64,000 bases of DNA from Candidatus Aminicenantes bacterium. Lineage in GTDB: Bacteria; Acidobacteriota; Aminicenantia; Aminicenantales; CAVYOD01. The translations under genes and the position numbers were made by a program. Location: assembly GCA_963701305.1 (NCBI GenBank), contig OY969586.1, forward strand, positions 1,074,690 through 1,138,689, given 5' to 3'. A model generated the notes under the pieces. That model ran no database searches. It saw only the letters and a program-made list of their open reading frames with translations, and was not told the DNA's origin. Positions 45,728 to 52,325 of this stretch are shown piece after piece. How positions within the stretch are numbered: the stretch's first letter is position 1; the number at the start of each line of letters is the position of its first letter.

Positions 45728-45756
45728 TTGACTTCGAGTGAGTCTGTTTTTACAAT
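45728..45756 (+). promoter_or_regulatory. Sigma70-like promoter for the pyl operon (-35 TTGACT, 17-bp spacer, -10 TACAAT).
   Basis: TTGACT at 45728..45733 and TACAAT at 45751..45756. The predicted transcript start is only ~8 nt before the pylSc ATG, giving a near-leaderless mRNA with no SD. Confidence 0.5.
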
Positions 45757-45771
45757 ACTTGACATAGACAC

Positions 45772-46602
45772 ATGATCGGCTGGACATCCTCTCAAAAGCA
45801 GCGCCTAAGAGAATTGAATGCCGACCCCGGCCTGCAGGAGAAAAACTTTTTGAGCTCTCGGGAACGAGACAAGGCCTTCCCTCTAGCCGAACGGCCACTC
45901 TGCCAAAGGAGCCTTCGGAAGCTACAGAAAATAAGGGAGAGCCGCAAACGGCCCAAGATCTGCAGATTGGAATCCAGGCTCATCCGCGCTCTCGTACGGG
46001 AAGGGTTCGTTCAGGTGACAACACCCATTCTGATCTCCCGGGGATCTCTGGAAAAAATGTCTATCGGAGAAAGCCACGAGCTGGCCAAGCAGGTCTTCTG
46101 GGTCGACGAGAACCGCTGCCTGCGGCCTATGCTGGCCCCTAACCTCTATTTTCTCCTGCGAGAGCTTGTCAAAGTCTGGGAGAAACCCGTTCGAATCTTC
46201 GAGGTGGGACCTTGTTTTCGCCGGGACAGCGCGGGGAAACACCACCTCAATGAATTCACGATGCTGAATCTGGTTGAACTCGGCCTCCCGGAAAAAACCA
46301 AGACGGAGAGGTTCGAGGAGCTGGCCGCTCTGGTCATGAAGACCGCCGGGATTCAGAATCATAAGTTTACCAGGCACCAGAGCGAGGTCTACGGCGAGAC
46401 AATCGACATCGATTCTACGATCGAGCTTGCTTCGGGGGTGATCGGCCCGAATCCGTTGGATTCCCGGTGGGAGGTCGTTGACAACTGGGTGGGCATCGGA
46501 GTCGGACTGGAGAGGCTGATCATGGTCAGCGAAAAGTATCAGAATATTCAGCGGGCTGGCCGGGCGCTTGTTTATCTGGACGGGATTCGGCTCAACATCT
46601 GA
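45772..46602 (+). CDS. pylS: Pyrrolysyl-tRNA synthetase catalytic (C-terminal) domain protein, PylSc.
   Basis: Near-collinear match to the PylS class II core: CLRPMLAPNLY, PVRIFEVGPCFRRDSAGKHHLNEFTMLN, VYGETIDI, ELASGVIGPNPLD, W.GIGVGLERL and the C-terminal GIRLNI (archaeal GISTNL). Confidence 0.88.
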   Translation: MIGWTSSQKQRLRELNADPGLQEKNFLSSRERDKAFPLAERPLCQRSLRKLQKIRESRKRPKICRLESRLIRALVREGFVQVTTPILISRGSLEKMSIGESHELAKQVFWVDENRCLRPMLAPNLYFLLRELVKVWEKPVRIFEVGPCFRRDSAGKHHLNEFTMLNLVELGLPEKTKTERFEELAALVMKTAGIQNHKFTRHQSEVYGETIDIDSTIELASGVIGPNPLDSRWEVVDNWVGIGVGLERLIMVSEKYQNIQRAGRALVYLDGIRLNI

Positions 46603-46639
46603 AAAGGACAAGGCCGCCCATTCATCAAGGAGGTTGCCA

Positions 46640-47287
46640 ATGGCTAAAGAAGAGATTCTCAAGGAAGCCGCAGAATCCATCATCAATCATGATAAGGCCA
46701 AGGCCGAAGAGGTTGCCAACCGCGCTTTGGCCCAGGGGCTGGACCCGCTCGAAGTCATAACGAGGGGATTCCGGGAGGGCATCATCCAGGTCGGAGATCT
46801 CTTCGGGCGAGGTGAAATCTTCATGCCGGAGCTCCTGGACGCCGCTGAGGCGATGAAAACTGCCAACACCATTCTCACGGCCGCACTGCCCGAAGGGGCG
46901 CAGCAAAAAAAGGGAAAAGTGGTTGTCGGGACGGTTCAGGGCGACATCCATGACATCGGAAAACTCCTGGTTGTTTCTCTTCTCCAGGTCAACGGATTTG
47001 ACGTTTTTGACCTCGGGCATGACGTCGAAATCGGGAAATTTATCGAAAAAGCCCTGGAAGTCGATGCCGATATCATCGGCACCAGCGCTCTCTTGACGAC
47101 GACCATGACCGGCCAAAAGACGCTCGAAGAGGAGCTGAGAAAGGGGGGCCTCAAGCCCCGCTTCAAGACGATGGTCGGAGGAGCCCCGGTGACACAGCGC
47201 TGGGCAGACCGGATCGGAGCCGATGCTTATGGAGAGGACGCGTCCGAGGCAGTCAAAAAGGCCCTCGAATTGATGGAGAAAAAGTAG
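46640..47287 (+). CDS. Methylamine-type corrinoid protein (MtbC/MtmC/MttC-like B12-binding protein).
   Basis: N-terminal helical cap, then a B12-binding Rossmann domain with the D-x-H-x-x-G box (GDIHDIGK) and a C-terminal ...ADAYGEDASEAVKKAL. Strong RBS AAGGAGG. The ORF track starts at 46568. Confidence 0.8.
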   Translation: MAKEEILKEAAESIINHDKAKAEEVANRALAQGLDPLEVITRGFREGIIQVGDLFGRGEIFMPELLDAAEAMKTANTILTAALPEGAQQKKGKVVVGTVQGDIHDIGKLLVVSLLQVNGFDVFDLGHDVEIGKFIEKALEVDADIIGTSALLTTTMTGQKTLEEELRKGGLKPRFKTMVGGAPVTQRWADRIGADAYGEDASEAVKKALELMEKK

Positions 47288-47299
47288 CTCCATAATCTC

Positions 47300-50492: not shown

Positions 50493-50521
50493 CCGGGTGA
50501 AACTCCCGGACTCCCCGCCAC
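50450..50521 (+). tRNA. pylT: tRNA-Pyl (pylT), anticodon CUA, with the CCA end encoded.
   Basis: Manual fold: acceptor GGGGGGT/ACTCCCC (7 bp, one G-U); one nt (A); D-stem GATC/GATC with a 5-nt loop GGAAA; one nt (C); 6-bp anticodon stem CATAGA/TCTATG; loop CCCTAAA (anticodon CTA at 50480..50482); 3-nt variable loop TAG; T-stem CCGGG/CCCGG with loop TGAAACT; discriminator G; then CCA. These are the hallmark tRNA-Pyl features (6-bp anticodon stem, short D-loop, 3-nt variable loop, single nt between acceptor and D stems). Confidence 0.78.
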
Positions 50522-50578
50522 AACGATATAGATAGCGCAGTCGGCGAAACCAAAGGTTTCGCGACCGAGGCCGAGACG

Positions 50579-50908
50579 ATGACCGAGAAGATCAAGGAAA
50601 AATACTATCGAAAGCAGACCGACTTCTTTTTGCTGCTCGACAAGATCAAGCTTTGGCCGTCCCGAAAAGGTCTTCTTCACGGTGTCAAAGTCCTCGAGAT
50701 CAAAGGATCTCTGGCTGAGGTCACCACTCATTGCGACCGGACGTTCCGAGTTCGCTACTCACGGCACAGCCGGGCCGCCCGGTGGCTGCGCAACAAATGG
50801 CACAAGGGCCCCTGCCGGGAGTGCCAGATTCCCGACTGGAAACTCGAAAAATACGAGAAGACATATTTTGACCAACATCGAGGGTCAACCCTGAGAGGCA
50901 AGGACTGA
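50579..50908 (+). CDS. pylSn: PylSn, stand-alone N-terminal tRNA-Pyl-binding domain of the split pyrrolysyl-tRNA synthetase.
   Basis: LWPSRKGLLHGVKVLEIKGSLAEVTTHCDRTFRVRYSRHSRAARWLRNKWHKGPCRECQIP aligns with the archaeal PylS N-terminus ([61 protein letters not shown]), including the zinc-ligand Cys/His positions. Confidence 0.82.
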   Translation: MTEKIKEKYYRKQTDFFLLLDKIKLWPSRKGLLHGVKVLEIKGSLAEVTTHCDRTFRVRYSRHSRAARWLRNKWHKGPCRECQIPDWKLEKYEKTYFDQHRGSTLRGKD

Positions 50909-50939
50909 TGAATCCAGAAAAAAAGGAGGTGAAAAAGAC

Positions 50940-52325
50940 ATGTCGAAAATCAGAACCAGAATGGGAGATGCGTCTGTTGTCGAGGTCACCGAGGGCCGGC
51001 TCCGGGCCGACTTAGAGGAGGGAACGAAAGATGCGGCTCAACGGGGGAAAATTCCGCCGTTGTCGCAGGATGAGCTGAACCATCTGTATGATATCTACAG
51101 CGCGCCTTCAAGAGTGGTCGGCGTGGAGCCGGGCAACGAGGTCGTCTTCACCTATGACTCCACGGTGGGCGAAATCCAGCGCACCCTTATCCCTGTGAAC
51201 AGAATCCAGTCACTGCAGATGTTCGAGCGGATGTTGGGCGCGGACACAGTCGAACTGGCTCATAATGATTACAGCTTCAAAGCCGTAAAGCCCATCATCA
51301 GCGATGAACGCACCGCCCTGGAGCAAGCCCTTTTGGTGACGACGGTGCCCGTGCTCTACGGCGCCATGCCTAACCTCGGGCTCTATAATAAGCCCGAAGG
51401 CCCAGTTCCGAATTCCTCAAAACTGATGTCCGAAGGAAAAATCAAGGAAGCCAGAGCGTCCATGGAAGAGGCCATCGAATTTGCGATCCGGGATATGGTC
51501 TATGTGGCCAGCGAACTTTACGAATCCGGCGTCGACGCGATCGATTTTGACACCACGGGCTCGGCCGGTGATCCCGATTTTTTGGCCACGCTGAAAGCCG
51601 TCGAAATCCTGAAGAAAAAGTATCCTGATATCTGCGTCGAAATGGGAATGTCCGGAGAGTTTATCCTGGGAATGCACGGCGGACTGACTTATGACGGGAC
51701 CAGGTTGGCCGGGCTCTACCCGCACCAGCAGGTGAAGCTGGCCGAGAAAGCGGGCGTCACAATCTTCGGCCCGGTCGTCAACACGAACACGAGCAAAACC
51801 TGCGCCTGGAACGCGGCCCGAGTCATCACCTTCCTGAAGACCTGTGTAGAACAATCCAACATTCCCGTGCACGCGAATATGGGGATGGGTGTGGGCGGAC
51901 TTCCTGTGACCCCCTTCGTGCCTATTGACGCGGTTTCGAGGGCATCGAAGGCCGTTGTCGAGTTGACGAGACTGGACGGGTTGTAGGTGGGCGTAGGCGA
52001 TGTTCTCGGCATGGCCGCGACTCATGCGATCGCTTCGGGCATGGGCGGGATGCGCACTGCCGGAGATCTGGTGGCGCGCATGCAAATGTCCCGGGGCCTG
52101 AGAATCCGACAAGCCAAAGAGTACGTGGCCGGCAAACTGAAAATTAGCCCCATCGATCTGGCCGATCCGTTGATCATGTCAGAAATCAGAGAGGACTTGA
52201 AGCTGGGCCTGATCAATCCTCCTCCCAACTACGCGGTTGGGATCGAGGCCAAGTTCCATGTCGCCGCGCTTTTGGGAATCGAAATCCGGAGCCTCAAACG
52301 CTTCAAGGAAAAGGCGGGCCTTTGA
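50940..52325 (+). CDS. mtbB: Dimethylamine:corrinoid methyltransferase MtbB. A single in-frame UAG is read as pyrrolysine (codon 349). The ORF track splits it at 51986.
   Basis: Both halves are collinear with archaeal MtbB: RMGDAS..., GAMPNLGLYNKPEGP, VVNTNTSKTCAWNAARVITFLK, ...VSRASKAVVELTRLDGL-[TAG][51 protein letters not shown] (MtbB reads ...[53 protein letters not shown]...). Both ORFs are in the same frame. RBS AAGGAGGTG. Confidence 0.85.
51984..51986 (+). other. In-frame amber (UAG) codon predicted to encode pyrrolysine in mtbB.
   Basis: A TAG in frame joins ORFs 50940..51986 and 51987..52325 exactly at the conserved Pyl position of MtbB homologs. Confidence 0.8.

What the first reader, a model, noticed from the sequence alone, without database searches (positions are those of the whole stretch)
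45728..52325. Complete pyrrolysine cassette with a non-canonical layout: pylSc, corrinoid gene, pylB, pylC, pylD/pylT, pylSn, mtbB(UAG)
Every component needed to make and decode pyrrolysine is present and intact on one strand:
- a split PylRS (pylSc at 45772, pylSn at 50579);
- radical-SAM PylB, ATP-grasp PylC and dehydrogenase PylD;
- tRNA-Pyl with a CUA anticodon.
The gene order differs from the usual bacterial pylT-pylSc-pylB-pylC-pylD block. Here pylT lies between pylD and pylSn, a methylamine corrinoid-protein gene is inserted between pylSc and pylB, and a UAG-containing mtbB follows directly. Surrounding genes (GWxTD protein, Tat-exported Gfo/Idh/MocA, DUF1080, ~58-60% GC) point to an Acidobacteria-like aerobic-heterotroph lineage, which is not a recognised Pyl-using group as far as I know.
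Basis: partly seen in the sequence, partly recalled or inferred. Interest (0 to 1): 0.9.

Follow-up and report, generated by a model that had tools for sequence, protein, structure and literature searches.

The report
Pyrrolysine operon in an Aminicenantes bacterium
This is an intact set of genes for making and decoding the 22nd amino acid, pyrrolysine, together with the one enzyme in the window that needs it; it sits in the chromosome of an Aminicenantes (Acidobacteriota-related) bacterium, a real but modest extension of a well-known system.

Summary
On the + strand at 45728-52325 lie a promoter-like site, pylSc, a methylamine-type corrinoid gene, pylB, pylC, pylD, tRNA-Pyl(CUA), pylSn and mtbB with one in-frame TAG. 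Every protein scores above its NCBIfam curated cut-off. The tRNA has the tRNA-Pyl hallmarks and strong covariation.

It is not a chimera. A MAG labelled 'Candidatus Aminicenantes bacterium' (L001) carries the same cassette in the same flanks. Two independent assemblies carry an identical PylB in the same gene neighbourhood.

The 'non-canonical layout' is real but not unique. The same eight-part order recurs in at least 14 other public loci, labelled Aminicenantes, Dehalococcoidia, Deltaproteobacteria or unclassified, and it tracks a PylSc clade.

No paper I could search reports pyrrolysine in Acidobacteriota or Aminicenantes. However, NCBI already names these proteins in Aminicenantes MAGs.

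'Aerobic' is unsupported: a desulfoferrodoxin gene is present and the pathway is oxygen-sensitive.

Extras:
- pylD ends on a UAG inside pylT.
- The tRNA has C33 instead of U33.
- TAG ends about one third of the genes in the window.
- No methyl-acceptor transferase or activase gene is in the window.

Verdict: a new member of a known kind, of moderate interest.

The parts
45728..45756 (+). Sigma-70-type promoter-like site, TTGACT-17 nt-TACAAT, 15 nt upstream of the pylSc ATG. This implies a short or absent leader.
   Evidence: Consensus scan gives 10 of 12 matches. Both hexamers are conserved in the window, L001, L081 and L002, although the sequence upstream of them is unrelated.
45772..46602 (+). 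pylSc, the catalytic subunit of the split pyrrolysyl-tRNA synthetase (276 aa).
   Evidence: TIGR02367 scores 333.7 bits against a cut-off of 178. It aligns end to end with the Desulfitobacterium hafniense PylSc structures 3DSQ and 2ZNI, E=8e-90.
46640..47287 (+). Methyltransferase-cognate corrinoid protein, MtbC-like (215 aa). It has an AAGGAGG ribosome-binding site and ends in TAG.
   Evidence: TIGR02370 scores 235.2 against 215.3. The MtbC equivalog model is the best specific hit, but at 209 bits it is below its cut-off of 350. Pfam finds B12-binding_2 plus B12-binding. The start codon was read from the sequence and matches the gene call on Logan contigs.
47300..48415 (+). pylB, radical-SAM methylornithine synthase (371 aa).
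   Evidence: TIGR03910 scores 459 against 348. Pfam finds Radical_SAM.
48424..49578 (+). pylC, ATP-grasp 3-methylornithine--L-lysine ligase (384 aa, GTG start).
   Evidence: TIGR03909 scores 453 against 248. Pfam finds PylC-like_N plus ATP-grasp. The start codon agrees with the independent gene call on Logan contigs.
49620..50492 (+). pylD, dehydrogenase (290 aa). The ORF runs 44 nt into pylT, and its stop is the UAG formed by the tRNA's 3-nt variable loop.
   Evidence: TIGR03911 scores 241.7 against 150. Pfam finds PylD_N. The overlap was read from the sequence and compared across loci.
50449..50520 (+). pylT, tRNA-Pyl(CUA), with an encoded CCA end.
   Evidence: Found by ARAGORN. The minimum-energy fold is a cloverleaf at -29.1 kcal/mol with a 7-bp acceptor stem, a 1-nt linker, a 5-nt D loop, a 6-bp anticodon stem and a 3-nt variable loop. 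G73 follows the acceptor stem (read from that fold and sequence). Across 31 homologues 99.6% of cells pair, 13 of 22 pairs show compensatory changes, and 0 of 500 shuffles reach the observed values.
50579..50908 (+). pylSn, the tRNA-binding small subunit of PylRS (109 aa).
   Evidence: TIGR03912 scores 119.2 against 51. It aligns to the M. mazei PylRS N-terminal domain 5UD5, E=3e-8.
50940..52325 (+). mtbB, dimethylamine:corrinoid methyltransferase (461 codons), with an in-frame UAG (Pyl) at 51984-51986, codon 349.
   Evidence: TIGR02368 scores 515.3 against 369. Pfam Dimeth_Pyl scores 647.8 bits. All 33 homologues in the fetched loci have TAG at this codon, and the 112 residues after it are as conserved as those before it.
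51984..52083 (+). Match to Rfam PYLIS_2 (mtbB), starting on the UAG.
   Evidence: 64.4 bits against a gathering score of 36, E=3e-13. Many pairs of the first hairpin are flagged as non-standard, so the match mainly shows that the UAG is homologous to the archaeal one, not that a structure exists.
52388..52497 (.). Structured intergenic element with 29-nt terminal inverted repeats. It is a possible terminator of the operon and belongs to a small repeat family, so it is adjacent to the cassette, not part of it.
   Evidence: The inverted repeat is 93% complementary. The 208-nt spacer folds with a z-score of -5.1. There are three copies in the window with identical 98-nt spacing of the end motif. 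This copy's 12-nt end motif is not found at the corresponding site in L001, where the window/L001 alignment also breaks.

Best explanation
The region is a single chromosomal operon of an Aminicenantes-lineage bacterium. It supplies everything needed to read one UAG codon as pyrrolysine, plus the enzyme that contains that codon.

Pathway, from established knowledge of the families:
- PylB converts lysine to 3-methyl-D-ornithine.
- PylC ligates it to the epsilon-amine of a second lysine.
- PylD oxidises the product, which cyclises to pyrrolysine.
- PylSc charges tRNA-Pyl(CUA), with PylSn holding the tRNA.
- The charged tRNA inserts Pyl at codon 349 of mtbB.
- MtbB then moves a methyl group from dimethylamine to the Co(I) corrinoid of the MtbC-like protein.

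Shown here: the presence, intactness, order and conservation of all parts, and the homologous position of the UAG.

Inferred: transcription from the conserved promoter-like site; excision of pylT from the polycistronic RNA; activity in vivo; and the fate of the methyl group, because the acceptor methyltransferase and the corrinoid activase are not in the window.

The cassette belongs to a widespread layout type (Sc-mtbC-B-C-D-T-Sn-mtbB). That type is shared with Dehalococcoidia and other phyla, and it has been stable in this genus.
For: Gene content:
- All seven proteins score above curated cut-offs, with essentially full-length model coverage.
- PylSc aligns with D. hafniense PylSc and PylSn with the M. 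mazei N-terminal domain.
- The tRNA is found by ARAGORN and folds as a cloverleaf with strong covariation. Its features match those listed for tRNA-Pyl in PMC7609411 and PMC3941956.

The UAG is read through:
- The PYLIS_2 match starts on the UAG.
- 33 of 33 MtbB homologues have TAG at codon 349, with equal conservation on both sides.

Not a chimera:
- GC content and codon-position GC of the cassette equal those of the flanks.
- An identical PylB with the same neighbouring genes is on two independent Logan assemblies.
- L001, labelled an Aminicenantes MAG, is collinear over 22 kb: 94% nucleotide identity in the cassette and 80-94% in the flanks.
- An identical PylSc is on a 4.07-Mb NCBI/ENA contig.

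Lineage:
- L001's label.
- A flank gene 34 kb upstream has only 'Candidatus Aminicenantes' among its named hits, at about 60% identity. That matches the 62-64% identity of PylSc to the same group.

Layout type:
- tblastn maps and tRNA positions in 83 loci.
- A neighbour-joining tree of PylSc separates three layout-coherent clades.
- L081 carries the same eight-part block in different flanks.
- The promoter hexamers are conserved with the block.
Against: - No expression, charging or mass-spectrometry evidence exists.
- TAG terminates 15 of 44 crudely called genes in the window, including mtbC and pylD. UAG suppression must therefore be conditional, weak or tolerated.
- No MT2-type (URO-D or pterin-binding) methyltransferase, RamA-type activase or amine transporter was found among the window's ORFs. 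The pathway is incomplete as seen.
- The corrinoid protein does not reach the MtbC equivalog cut-off.
- The tRNA has C33 instead of the near-universal U33, which might lower decoding efficiency.
- The tree is a quick neighbour-joining tree without support values or an archaeal outgroup.
- Taxon labels on many MAGs are unreliable, for example 'uncultured Eubacteriales' on Aminicenantes-type loci.
Confidence: 0.85

Rival explanations
1. The cassette is a recently acquired mobile island, moved by horizontal transfer from a Firmicute, Chloroflexi or Deltaproteobacterial donor, and not a stable trait of this lineage.
For: - The same layout occurs under several phylum labels.
- L081 carries the identical block in unrelated flanks.
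- The promoter travels with the block.
- Clustering of pyl genes with mtxBC has been argued to favour transfer (PMC5424206).
Against: - The cassette shows no compositional or codon-position difference from its flanks.
- No integrase, transposase, or flanking direct repeats were found.
- There is no PylSc in the plasmid or phage collections.
- The insertion site is the same in the window and in L001.
- PylSc divergence from other Aminicenantes (62-64%) matches that of a flank housekeeping-type gene (about 60%).
- Transfer between phyla is likely ancient. Within Aminicenantes the data fit mostly vertical descent with occasional relocation.
Confidence: 0.1
2. The cassette is a decaying or silent relic. 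The TAG in mtbB is a true stop and the genes are no longer used.
For: - TAG is a common stop codon here.
- The tRNA has C33.
- No downstream pathway genes are in the window.
- One complete Aminicenantes chromosome (L005, CP070750.1) retains only pylSc plus 45 codons of mtbC, so loss does occur in this group.
Against: - All eight parts are intact with full-length model matches.
- The 112 codons after the TAG are as conserved as those before it in 33 of 33 homologues.
- The tRNA stems are kept by compensatory changes.
- The cassette is the best-conserved stretch between the window and L001, at 94% against 80-92% for most flank segments (one 1.3-kb flank segment also reaches 94%).
Confidence: 0.04
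3. The contig is an assembly or binning chimera that joins a foreign pyl island to Aminicenantes flanks.
For: No positive evidence for it was found.
Against: - Both junctions are reproduced in two independent Logan assemblies.
- Both are also reproduced in an independently assembled MAG, L001.
- Composition is uniform across the junctions.
Confidence: 0.01

Closest known systems
Desulfitobacterium hafniense-type bacterial pyl cluster (pylT-pylSc-pylB-pylC-pylD-pylSn)
   Same: Both have a split PylRS with PylSc and PylSn encoded separately, the same five protein families, and a tRNA-Pyl with the same architecture. PylSc aligns end to end with 3DSQ and 2ZNI. The internal order ScBCD...Sn is kept (PMC3941956).
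   Different: Here pylT lies after pylD and overlaps it, instead of lying before pylSc. A corrinoid gene sits between pylSc and pylB, and mtbB is the last gene of the same block. In the neighbour-joining tree the canonical layout forms a separate PylSc clade.
'Chloroflexi-type' pylSc/pylSn genes seen in metagenomes (Mukai et al. 2017, PMC5424206) and the Dehalococcoidia MAG cassettes fetched here
   Same: The layout Sc-mtbC-B-C-D-T-Sn is the same, with or without mtbB, and they fall in the same PylSc super-clade at 55-59% identity.
   Different: The host phylum differs. Most Dehalococcoidia copies lack the terminal mtbB, and in several the pylD stop lies 26-36 nt before the tRNA instead of inside it.
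Syntrophaceticus / Thermacetogeniaceae / Syntrophomonadaceae-labelled clusters (pylB-pylC-pylSn-pylSc-pylD-pylT)
   Same: pylT directly follows pylD, either with an overlap or with a spacer of at most about 20 nt.
   Different: The rest of the gene order differs, no corrinoid gene or mtbB lies inside the block, and they form a separate PylSc clade.
Methanosarcina pylTSBCD with mtbB/mtbC for methylamine methanogenesis
   Same: The chemistry is the same, the UAG in mtbB is homologous (the PYLIS_2 match starts on it), and the tRNA hallmarks are the same.
   Different: Methanosarcina has a fused PylS, transfers the methyl group to coenzyme M through MtbA, and uses few TAG stops (my own knowledge). 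Here PylRS is split, the acceptor is unknown, and TAG ends about a third of the genes.
Acetohalobium arabaticum, with pyl genes next to mttBC and substrate-dependent code expansion (Prat et al. 2012; recalled from memory, not read here)
   Same: Both link the Pyl machinery to its client methyltransferase in a bacterium that also uses TAG as a stop. This is a plausible model for conditional suppression.
   Different: The client there is trimethylamine MttB, the host is a Firmicute, and the gene order differs. No induction data exist for the present cassette.

Membership tests
Pyrrolysine genetic-code-expansion cassette (pylT, pylS, pylB, pylC, pylD) | A tRNA with a CUA anticodon and the tRNA-Pyl architecture: 6-bp anticodon stem, 3-nt variable loop, 1-nt linker between acceptor and D stems, small D loop, G1:C72 and G73. 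| tested here: met
   ARAGORN, fold and covariation across 31 homologues. The feature list comes from PMC7609411 and PMC3941956. One deviation: C33 in place of U33.
Pyrrolysine genetic-code-expansion cassette (pylT, pylS, pylB, pylC, pylD) | PylRS catalytic domain (TIGR02367), plus PylSn (TIGR03912) in bacteria. | tested here: met
   333.7 bits against 178 and 119.2 against 51. Matches to PDB entries 3DSQ/2ZNI and 5UD5.
Pyrrolysine genetic-code-expansion cassette (pylT, pylS, pylB, pylC, pylD) | PylB, PylC and PylD equivalogs, clustered. | tested here: met
   459 against 348, 453 against 248, and 241.7 against 150. The three genes are contiguous on one strand.
Pyrrolysine genetic-code-expansion cassette (pylT, pylS, pylB, pylC, pylD) | Actual synthesis of Pyl and its insertion at UAG. 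| not testable with these tools
   This needs mass spectrometry of MtbB or a heterologous amber-suppression assay.
Pyl-dependent dimethylamine methyltransferase system (MtbB, MtbC, MT2, RamA) | An MtbB equivalog with an in-frame UAG at the conserved Pyl position. | tested here: met
   TIGR02368 scores 515.3 against 369. The PYLIS_2 match starts on the UAG. TAG is at codon 349 in 33 of 33 homologues.
Pyl-dependent dimethylamine methyltransferase system (MtbB, MtbC, MT2, RamA) | A cognate corrinoid protein, MtbC. | tested here: inconclusive
   The subfamily model TIGR02370 is passed (235.2 against 215.3). The MtbC equivalog NF041607 scores 209.4, below its cut-off of 350. The assignment rests on context.
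Pyl-dependent dimethylamine methyltransferase system (MtbB, MtbC, MT2, RamA) | A methylcorrinoid:acceptor methyltransferase (MtbA/URO-D type or THF type) and a RamA-type reductive activase. | tested here: not met
   Neither was found among the Pfam-scanned ORFs of the 64-kb window. A distant relative, L082, has two URO-D genes plus a second corrinoid gene next to its cassette. The rest of this genome was not available.
Canonical bacterial pyl layout (pylTScBCDSn or pylSnScBCD; PMC3941956) | pylT directly upstream of pylSc, and pylSc directly followed by pylB. | tested here: not met
   pylT lies at 50449-50520, after pylD, and a corrinoid gene separates pylSc from pylB. The same departure is seen in at least 14 other loci.
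PYLIS element (Rfam RF02509) | A conserved stem-loop immediately 3' of the UAG. | tested here: inconclusive
   The score of 64.4 bits is above the gathering score of 36, but many pairs of the first hairpin are non-standard in this sequence. The match may simply reflect conservation of the coding sequence.
Aminicenantes (NCBI candidate phylum; class Aminicenantia of Acidobacteriota in GTDB, from my own knowledge) | Genome-wide phylogenetic placement. | tested here: inconclusive
   The evidence is indirect but consistent. The window is collinear over 22 kb with a MAG labelled Candidatus Aminicenantes, and all named relatives of a flank gene carry that label. No ribosomal or marker-gene tree could be made from this window.

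The most novel reading that the evidence does not exclude
The eight-part block (own promoter, pylSc, mtbC, pylB, pylC, pylD, pylT, pylSn, mtbB) may be a self-contained transferable module. It would install dimethylamine demethylation and the code expansion it needs in one step, with built-in dosage control.

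Two features could provide that control:
- The suppressor tRNA can only arise by cutting it out of the operon RNA, at the expense of the 3' end of pylD. In the window and most Aminicenantes-type relatives this removes pylD's stop codon.
- In this lineage the tRNA carries C33 instead of U33, which would weaken UAG reading.

Together these would let a genome in which about one third of genes end in TAG tolerate the system.
Probability: 0.15. Interest if true: 0.6.

Novelty: new member of a known kind. Interest (0 to 1): 0.35.

Why it matters
The latest published survey I could read lists bacterial pyrrolysine use in only four phyla: Firmicutes, Deltaproteobacteria, Actinobacteria and Spirochaetes (PMC9630628). 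Chloroflexi was noted separately in 2017 (PMC5424206).

This window and its relatives show intact, chromosomally stable cassettes in Aminicenantes. They also show that a distinct cassette layout with a dedicated dimethylamine methyltransferase is shared with Dehalococcoidia and other uncultured sediment and soil lineages.

If the cassettes are active, these abundant heterotrophs would compete with methylotrophic methanogens for dimethylamine. That bears on methane budgets.

The cassette also offers natural split PylRS/tRNA-Pyl pairs with an unusual C33 anticodon loop, which may interest genetic-code engineers.

None of this changes how the system is understood to work.

Tried and rejected
1. 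Chimera or contamination. Rejected on synteny with L001, two independent assemblies, and uniform composition.

2. Carriage on plasmids or phages. tblastn with PylSc found nothing in either collection.

3. Other Pyl-containing genes in the window. A scan for ORFs split by an in-frame TAG found mtbB and the mtbC/pylB pair. It also found three antisense artefacts inside the A2M, proline-racemase and amidohydrolase genes.

4. A programmed MtbC-Pyl-PylB read-through fusion. mtbC ends in TAG, and pylB follows in the same frame four codons later in the window and, judging from tblastn hit coordinates, in L001. The frames differ in L081 and L082 (from gene calls) and, by my estimate from tblastn hit coordinates, in L002, so I treat it as coincidence.

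5. A conserved PylD C-terminal tail encoded within pylT. Rejected, because the stop falls at tRNA positions 7, 25, 32-33 or 41-45 in different loci. The tails therefore cannot be homologous, and in several loci they lie in different reading frames.

6. Flanking direct repeats or att-like sites around the cassette. None was convincing.

7. Rfam at gathering threshold does not call the tRNA itself. Only PYLIS_2 is reported.

8. Literature searches for pyrrolysine with Acidobacteria, Acidobacteriota or Aminicenantes, and for Aminicenantes with dimethylamine. These returned no report of Pyl use in these groups. The hits concern non-Pyl MttB homologues or only cite references. One broad search was badly framed and uninformative.

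9. An exact look-up of the window's PylSc in the contig index failed, although the identical protein is in the protein database.

Full report
**Observation**

The window contains one tRNA gene, tRNA-Pyl with anticodon CTA, at 50449-50520 on the + strand. Around it, on the same strand, lie seven ORFs. Their products all exceed the curated NCBIfam cut-offs:

| Gene | Coordinates | Model | Bits | Cut-off |
|---|---|---|---|---|
| PylSc | 45772-46602 | TIGR02367 | 333.7 | 178 |
| corrinoid protein | 46640-47287 | TIGR02370 | 235.2 | 215.3 |
| PylB | 47300-48415 | TIGR03910 | 459 | 348 |
| PylC | 48424-49578 | TIGR03909 | 453 | 248 |
| PylD | 49620-50492 | TIGR03911 | 241.7 | 150 |
| PylSn | 50579-50908 | TIGR03912 | 119.2 | 51 |
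| MtbB | 50940-52325 | TIGR02368 | 515.3 | 369 |

- Pfam agrees with these assignments. Dimeth_Pyl scores 647.8 bits on MtbB, and PylD_N, PylC-like_N, Radical_SAM and the B12-binding domains are all found.
- The mtbB frame is interrupted once, by TAG at 51984-51986, codon 349.
- PylSc aligns over its whole length with the solved D. hafniense PylSc (3DSQ, 2ZNI; E about 1e-89). PylSn aligns with the M. mazei PylRS N-terminal domain (5UD5).
Its start, 45728, is the first base of a TTGACT-17-TACAAT promoter-like site.

**The tRNA**

- The minimum-energy fold is a cloverleaf. It has a 7-bp acceptor stem, a single linker nucleotide, a 4-bp D stem with a 5-nt loop, a 6-bp anticodon stem, a 3-nt variable loop and a 5-bp T stem, followed by four unpaired 3' nucleotides that read G-CCA, i.e. 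discriminator G73 and an encoded CCA.
- These are the features listed for tRNA-Pyl in PMC7609411 and PMC3941956.
- In an alignment of 31 distinct homologues, 99.6% of cells form standard pairs. Thirteen of 22 pairs carry compensatory double changes, including all six in the anticodon stem. No shuffle of 500 and no slid register comes close.
- One departure from the norm: the anticodon loop reads CCCUAAA, so position 33 is C and not the near-universal U.
- The same C33 is present in L001, L003, L004, L006, L009, L010 and L055. The sister sequences L081, L002, L059, L011 and L082 have U33.

**The UAG is a sense codon**

- Rfam's PYLIS_2 (mtbB) model matches at 51984-52083, starting exactly on the UAG (64.4 bits against a gathering score of 36). 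The UAG is therefore homologous to the Methanosarcina Pyl codon.
- Many pairs in the predicted hairpin are non-standard, so I do not claim a structure.
- All 33 MtbB homologues in the loci I fetched have TAG at this codon.
- The 112 residues after the TAG are as conserved as the 348 before it. For example, identity is 87% before and 88% after for L002, and 82% before and 79% after for L003. This is what translation through the codon predicts.

**Not a chimera; lineage**

- GC content and codon-position GC are the same in the cassette and its flanks.
- An identical PylB lies in the same gene neighbourhood on two independent Logan assemblies (ERR12036778, ERR15459715), with amidohydrolase upstream on both and DPP-IV downstream on the longer contig.
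- An identical PylSc is recorded on a 4,072,281-bp NCBI/ENA contig.
- A scan of GTDB species representatives with a PylSc profile gave 479 confirmed loci. The best is L001, 'MAG: Candidatus Aminicenantes bacterium MFD04408.bin.2.57', at 97% amino-acid identity.
- L001 is collinear with the window over its whole 20.8 kb (about 22 kb of the window). Nucleotide identity is 94% in the cassette and 80-94% in the flanks on both sides. This is a congener carrying the cassette at the same chromosomal site.
- A dihydrolipoyl-dehydrogenase-like flank gene 34 kb upstream has only 'Candidatus Aminicenantes bacterium' among its named relatives, at about 60% identity. That divergence is the same as PylSc shows to those organisms, 62-64%.
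- I therefore accept 'Acidobacteria-like' in the GTDB sense (class Aminicenantia; my own knowledge of GTDB usage).
- I do not accept 'aerobic'. The window encodes a desulfoferrodoxin at 7874-8269, and the chemistry of PylB and Co(I) corrinoids is oxygen-sensitive (established knowledge).
- The flanks are rich in peptidases, amidohydrolases and beta-lactamase-fold proteins. This fits a proteolytic heterotroph.

**The layout**

The published generalisation is that bacterial clusters are pylTScBCDSn or pylSnScBCD, may be interrupted by other genes, and usually lie near mtxB genes (PMC3941956; PMC5424206). Here the order is pylSc, corrinoid gene, pylB, pylC, pylD, pylT, pylSn, mtbB.

I mapped the seven proteins by tblastn and the tRNAs by ARAGORN onto 83 loci. 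The results were:
- The identical eight-part order is in L001, L002, L003, L004, L006, L009, L010, L011, L013, L015, L024, L059, L081 and L082.
- The same order without the final mtbB is in the Dehalococcoidia-labelled loci L016, L033, L035 and L080.
- L036, L063, L028 and L076 are rearranged versions.
- Desulfosporosinus and Desulfobacterota loci have the canonical order.
- Loci labelled Syntrophaceticus, Thermacetogeniaceae, Syntrophomonadaceae or Peptococcaceae have pylB-pylC-pylSn-pylSc-pylD-pylT.

A neighbour-joining tree of PylSc separates these three layouts into three clades, and the window nests among the Aminicenantes-type sequences. This is a crude tree: midpoint-rooted and without support values.

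L081 has 81% PylSc identity. It carries the same block between entirely different neighbours: a sigma-70 gene and Band_7 on one side, DUF4342 and a protein kinase on the other. The -35 and -10 hexamers in front of pylSc are conserved in the window, L001, L081 and L002, although the sequence upstream of them is unrelated. The block therefore behaves as a unit with its own promoter.

The layout is real and differs from the textbook one. But it is a recurrent cassette type, not a peculiarity of this contig.

**Mechanism**

The biochemical roles follow from the families, as established knowledge:
- PylB makes 3-methyl-D-ornithine from lysine.
- PylC ligates it to a second lysine.
- PylD oxidises the product so that it cyclises to pyrrolysine.
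- PylSc, with PylSn, charges tRNA-Pyl.
- MtbB, with Pyl at residue 349, methylates the Co(I) corrinoid protein from dimethylamine.

Several points are inferred, not shown:
- *Co-transcription.* It is suggested by spacers of at most about 60 nt, by the single good promoter match, and by the absence of any promoter-like site in front of pylT.
- *pylT excision.* pylD always abuts pylT. In the window and in 14 of the other 26 loci with pylT after pylD, the pylD stop lies inside or beyond the tRNA. In most of the others it lies 8-36 nt upstream; two loci (L001, which shows fragmented tblastn hits, and L063) place it about 155-180 nt upstream.
- *The pylD stop.* In the window the stop is the UAG formed by the tRNA's own variable loop (50490-50492). 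In relatives it falls at tRNA positions 7, 25, 32-33 or 41-45. The peptide tails are therefore not conserved, and the overlap looks like a by-product of tight packing. It still implies that excising the tRNA removes the 3' end of the pylD message.
- *The fate of the methyl group.* This is unknown. No URO-D-type or pterin-type methyltransferase, RamA-type activase or transporter is among the ORFs I scanned in the window. A more distant relative, L082, does have two URO-D genes and a second corrinoid gene beside its cassette.
- *TAG as a stop.* TAG ends 15 of 44 crudely called genes, including mtbC and pylD. Read-through would extend them by 0 to 375 codons. Suppression must therefore be conditional or inefficient, as has been proposed for other Pyl-using bacteria (my own knowledge).

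**What is known and what is new**

- In the library I could search, no paper reports Pyl use in Acidobacteria, Acidobacteriota or Aminicenantes.
- The 2022 survey lists four bacterial phyla (PMC9630628). [quoted passage not shown]
- NCBI's pipeline already names 'pyrrolysine--tRNA(Pyl) ligase large subunit' in Aminicenantes and Acidobacteriota MAGs.
- The 120 best-scoring 90%-identity clusters that were listed all share at least 53% (nearly all at least 58%) identity with this PylSc.
- The system works like every other bacterial Pyl cassette and passes all family tests that could be run.
- I class it as a new member of a known kind. It is a useful phylum-level extension with a recurrent variant layout.

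**Limits**

- Only 64 kb of the genome was available.
- The taxon labels of many MAGs are unreliable.
- The tree is approximate.
- Nothing here shows expression or Pyl incorporation.

Noticed in passing
window 50449-50520 (tRNA positions 29-35); also L001, L003, L004, L006, L009, L010, L055: The tRNA-Pyl anticodon loop reads CCCUAAA, so position 33 is C instead of the near-universal U33. Sister cassettes L081, L002, L059, L011 and L082 keep U33, so the change seems to have arisen more than once. Its effect on decoding is unknown. U33 is reported as an identity element for the M. barkeri enzyme but is not contacted by the D. hafniense one (PMC7609411).
   Followed up: partly
window 50449-50492; 26 further loci: pylD overlaps pylT by 44 nt, and its stop codon is the UAG formed by the tRNA's 3-nt variable loop. 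In relatives the stop falls at tRNA positions 7, 25, 32-33 (UAA, which overlaps the anticodon) or 41-45, or lies 8-36 nt upstream. The tails are not homologous and lie in more than one reading frame, so the overlap seems incidental to tight packing.
   Followed up: yes
window 47285-47302: mtbC ends in TAG, and pylB starts four codons later in the same frame. UAG read-through would therefore give an MtbC-Pyl-PylB fusion of about 591 aa. The arrangement appears shared with L001 (frame judged from tblastn hit coordinates) but not with L081 or L082 (frames from gene calls) nor, by my estimate from tblastn hit coordinates, L002, so it is probably coincidence.
   Followed up: yes
window 35238-35347, 52388-52497, 61620-61729: These are three copies of an intergenic element of about 110 nt. 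The terminal inverted repeats of about 27 nt are conserved (GGGGACGTTCCCCAAGGGGACACCCT ... AAGGGTGTCCCCNTGGGGAACGTCCC) and the centre varies. The end motif is spaced exactly 98 nt apart in all three (6 matches against 0.7 expected). L001 has the copy matching 35238 but lacks the end motif of the one after mtbB, so the element is polymorphic between congeners. It is MITE- or REP-like and may act as a terminator.
   Followed up: partly
whole window: TAG is a frequent stop codon. A crude longest-ORF gene list gives 16 TAG, 17 TGA and 12 TAA, and one of the TAGs is the mtbB Pyl codon.
   Followed up: partly
window 45728-45771; L001, L081, L002: The conserved TTGAC(T/A)-17-TACAAT site sits only 15 nt before the pylSc ATG (7 nt in L002), and no Shine-Dalgarno sequence is visible. 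This suggests a leaderless or nearly leaderless first gene.
   Followed up: partly
L005 (CP070750.1, 'Candidatus Aminicenantes bacterium bin34' chromosome) 9932-11033: This complete Aminicenantes chromosome keeps pylSc and only the first 45 codons of the corrinoid gene. No pylB, pylC, pylD, pylSn, mtbB or pylT lies within 10 kb. It appears to be a cassette remnant.
   Followed up: partly
window 7874-8269: A desulfoferrodoxin (superoxide reductase) gene.
   Followed up: no
window 28016-34036: A 2006-aa bacterial alpha-2-macroglobulin-like gene with MG2, A2M and bMG10 domains. It lies among many peptidase, amidohydrolase and beta-lactamase-fold genes.
   Followed up: no
L082 8403-9881 and 17237-20466: In a more distant Aminicenantes-type locus the same cassette is flanked by an uninterrupted MTTB-superfamily gene (492 aa, presumably non-Pyl). 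On the other side are two URO-D-family genes with a second corrinoid gene. These are candidate acceptor methyltransferases and are missing from the window.
   Followed up: no
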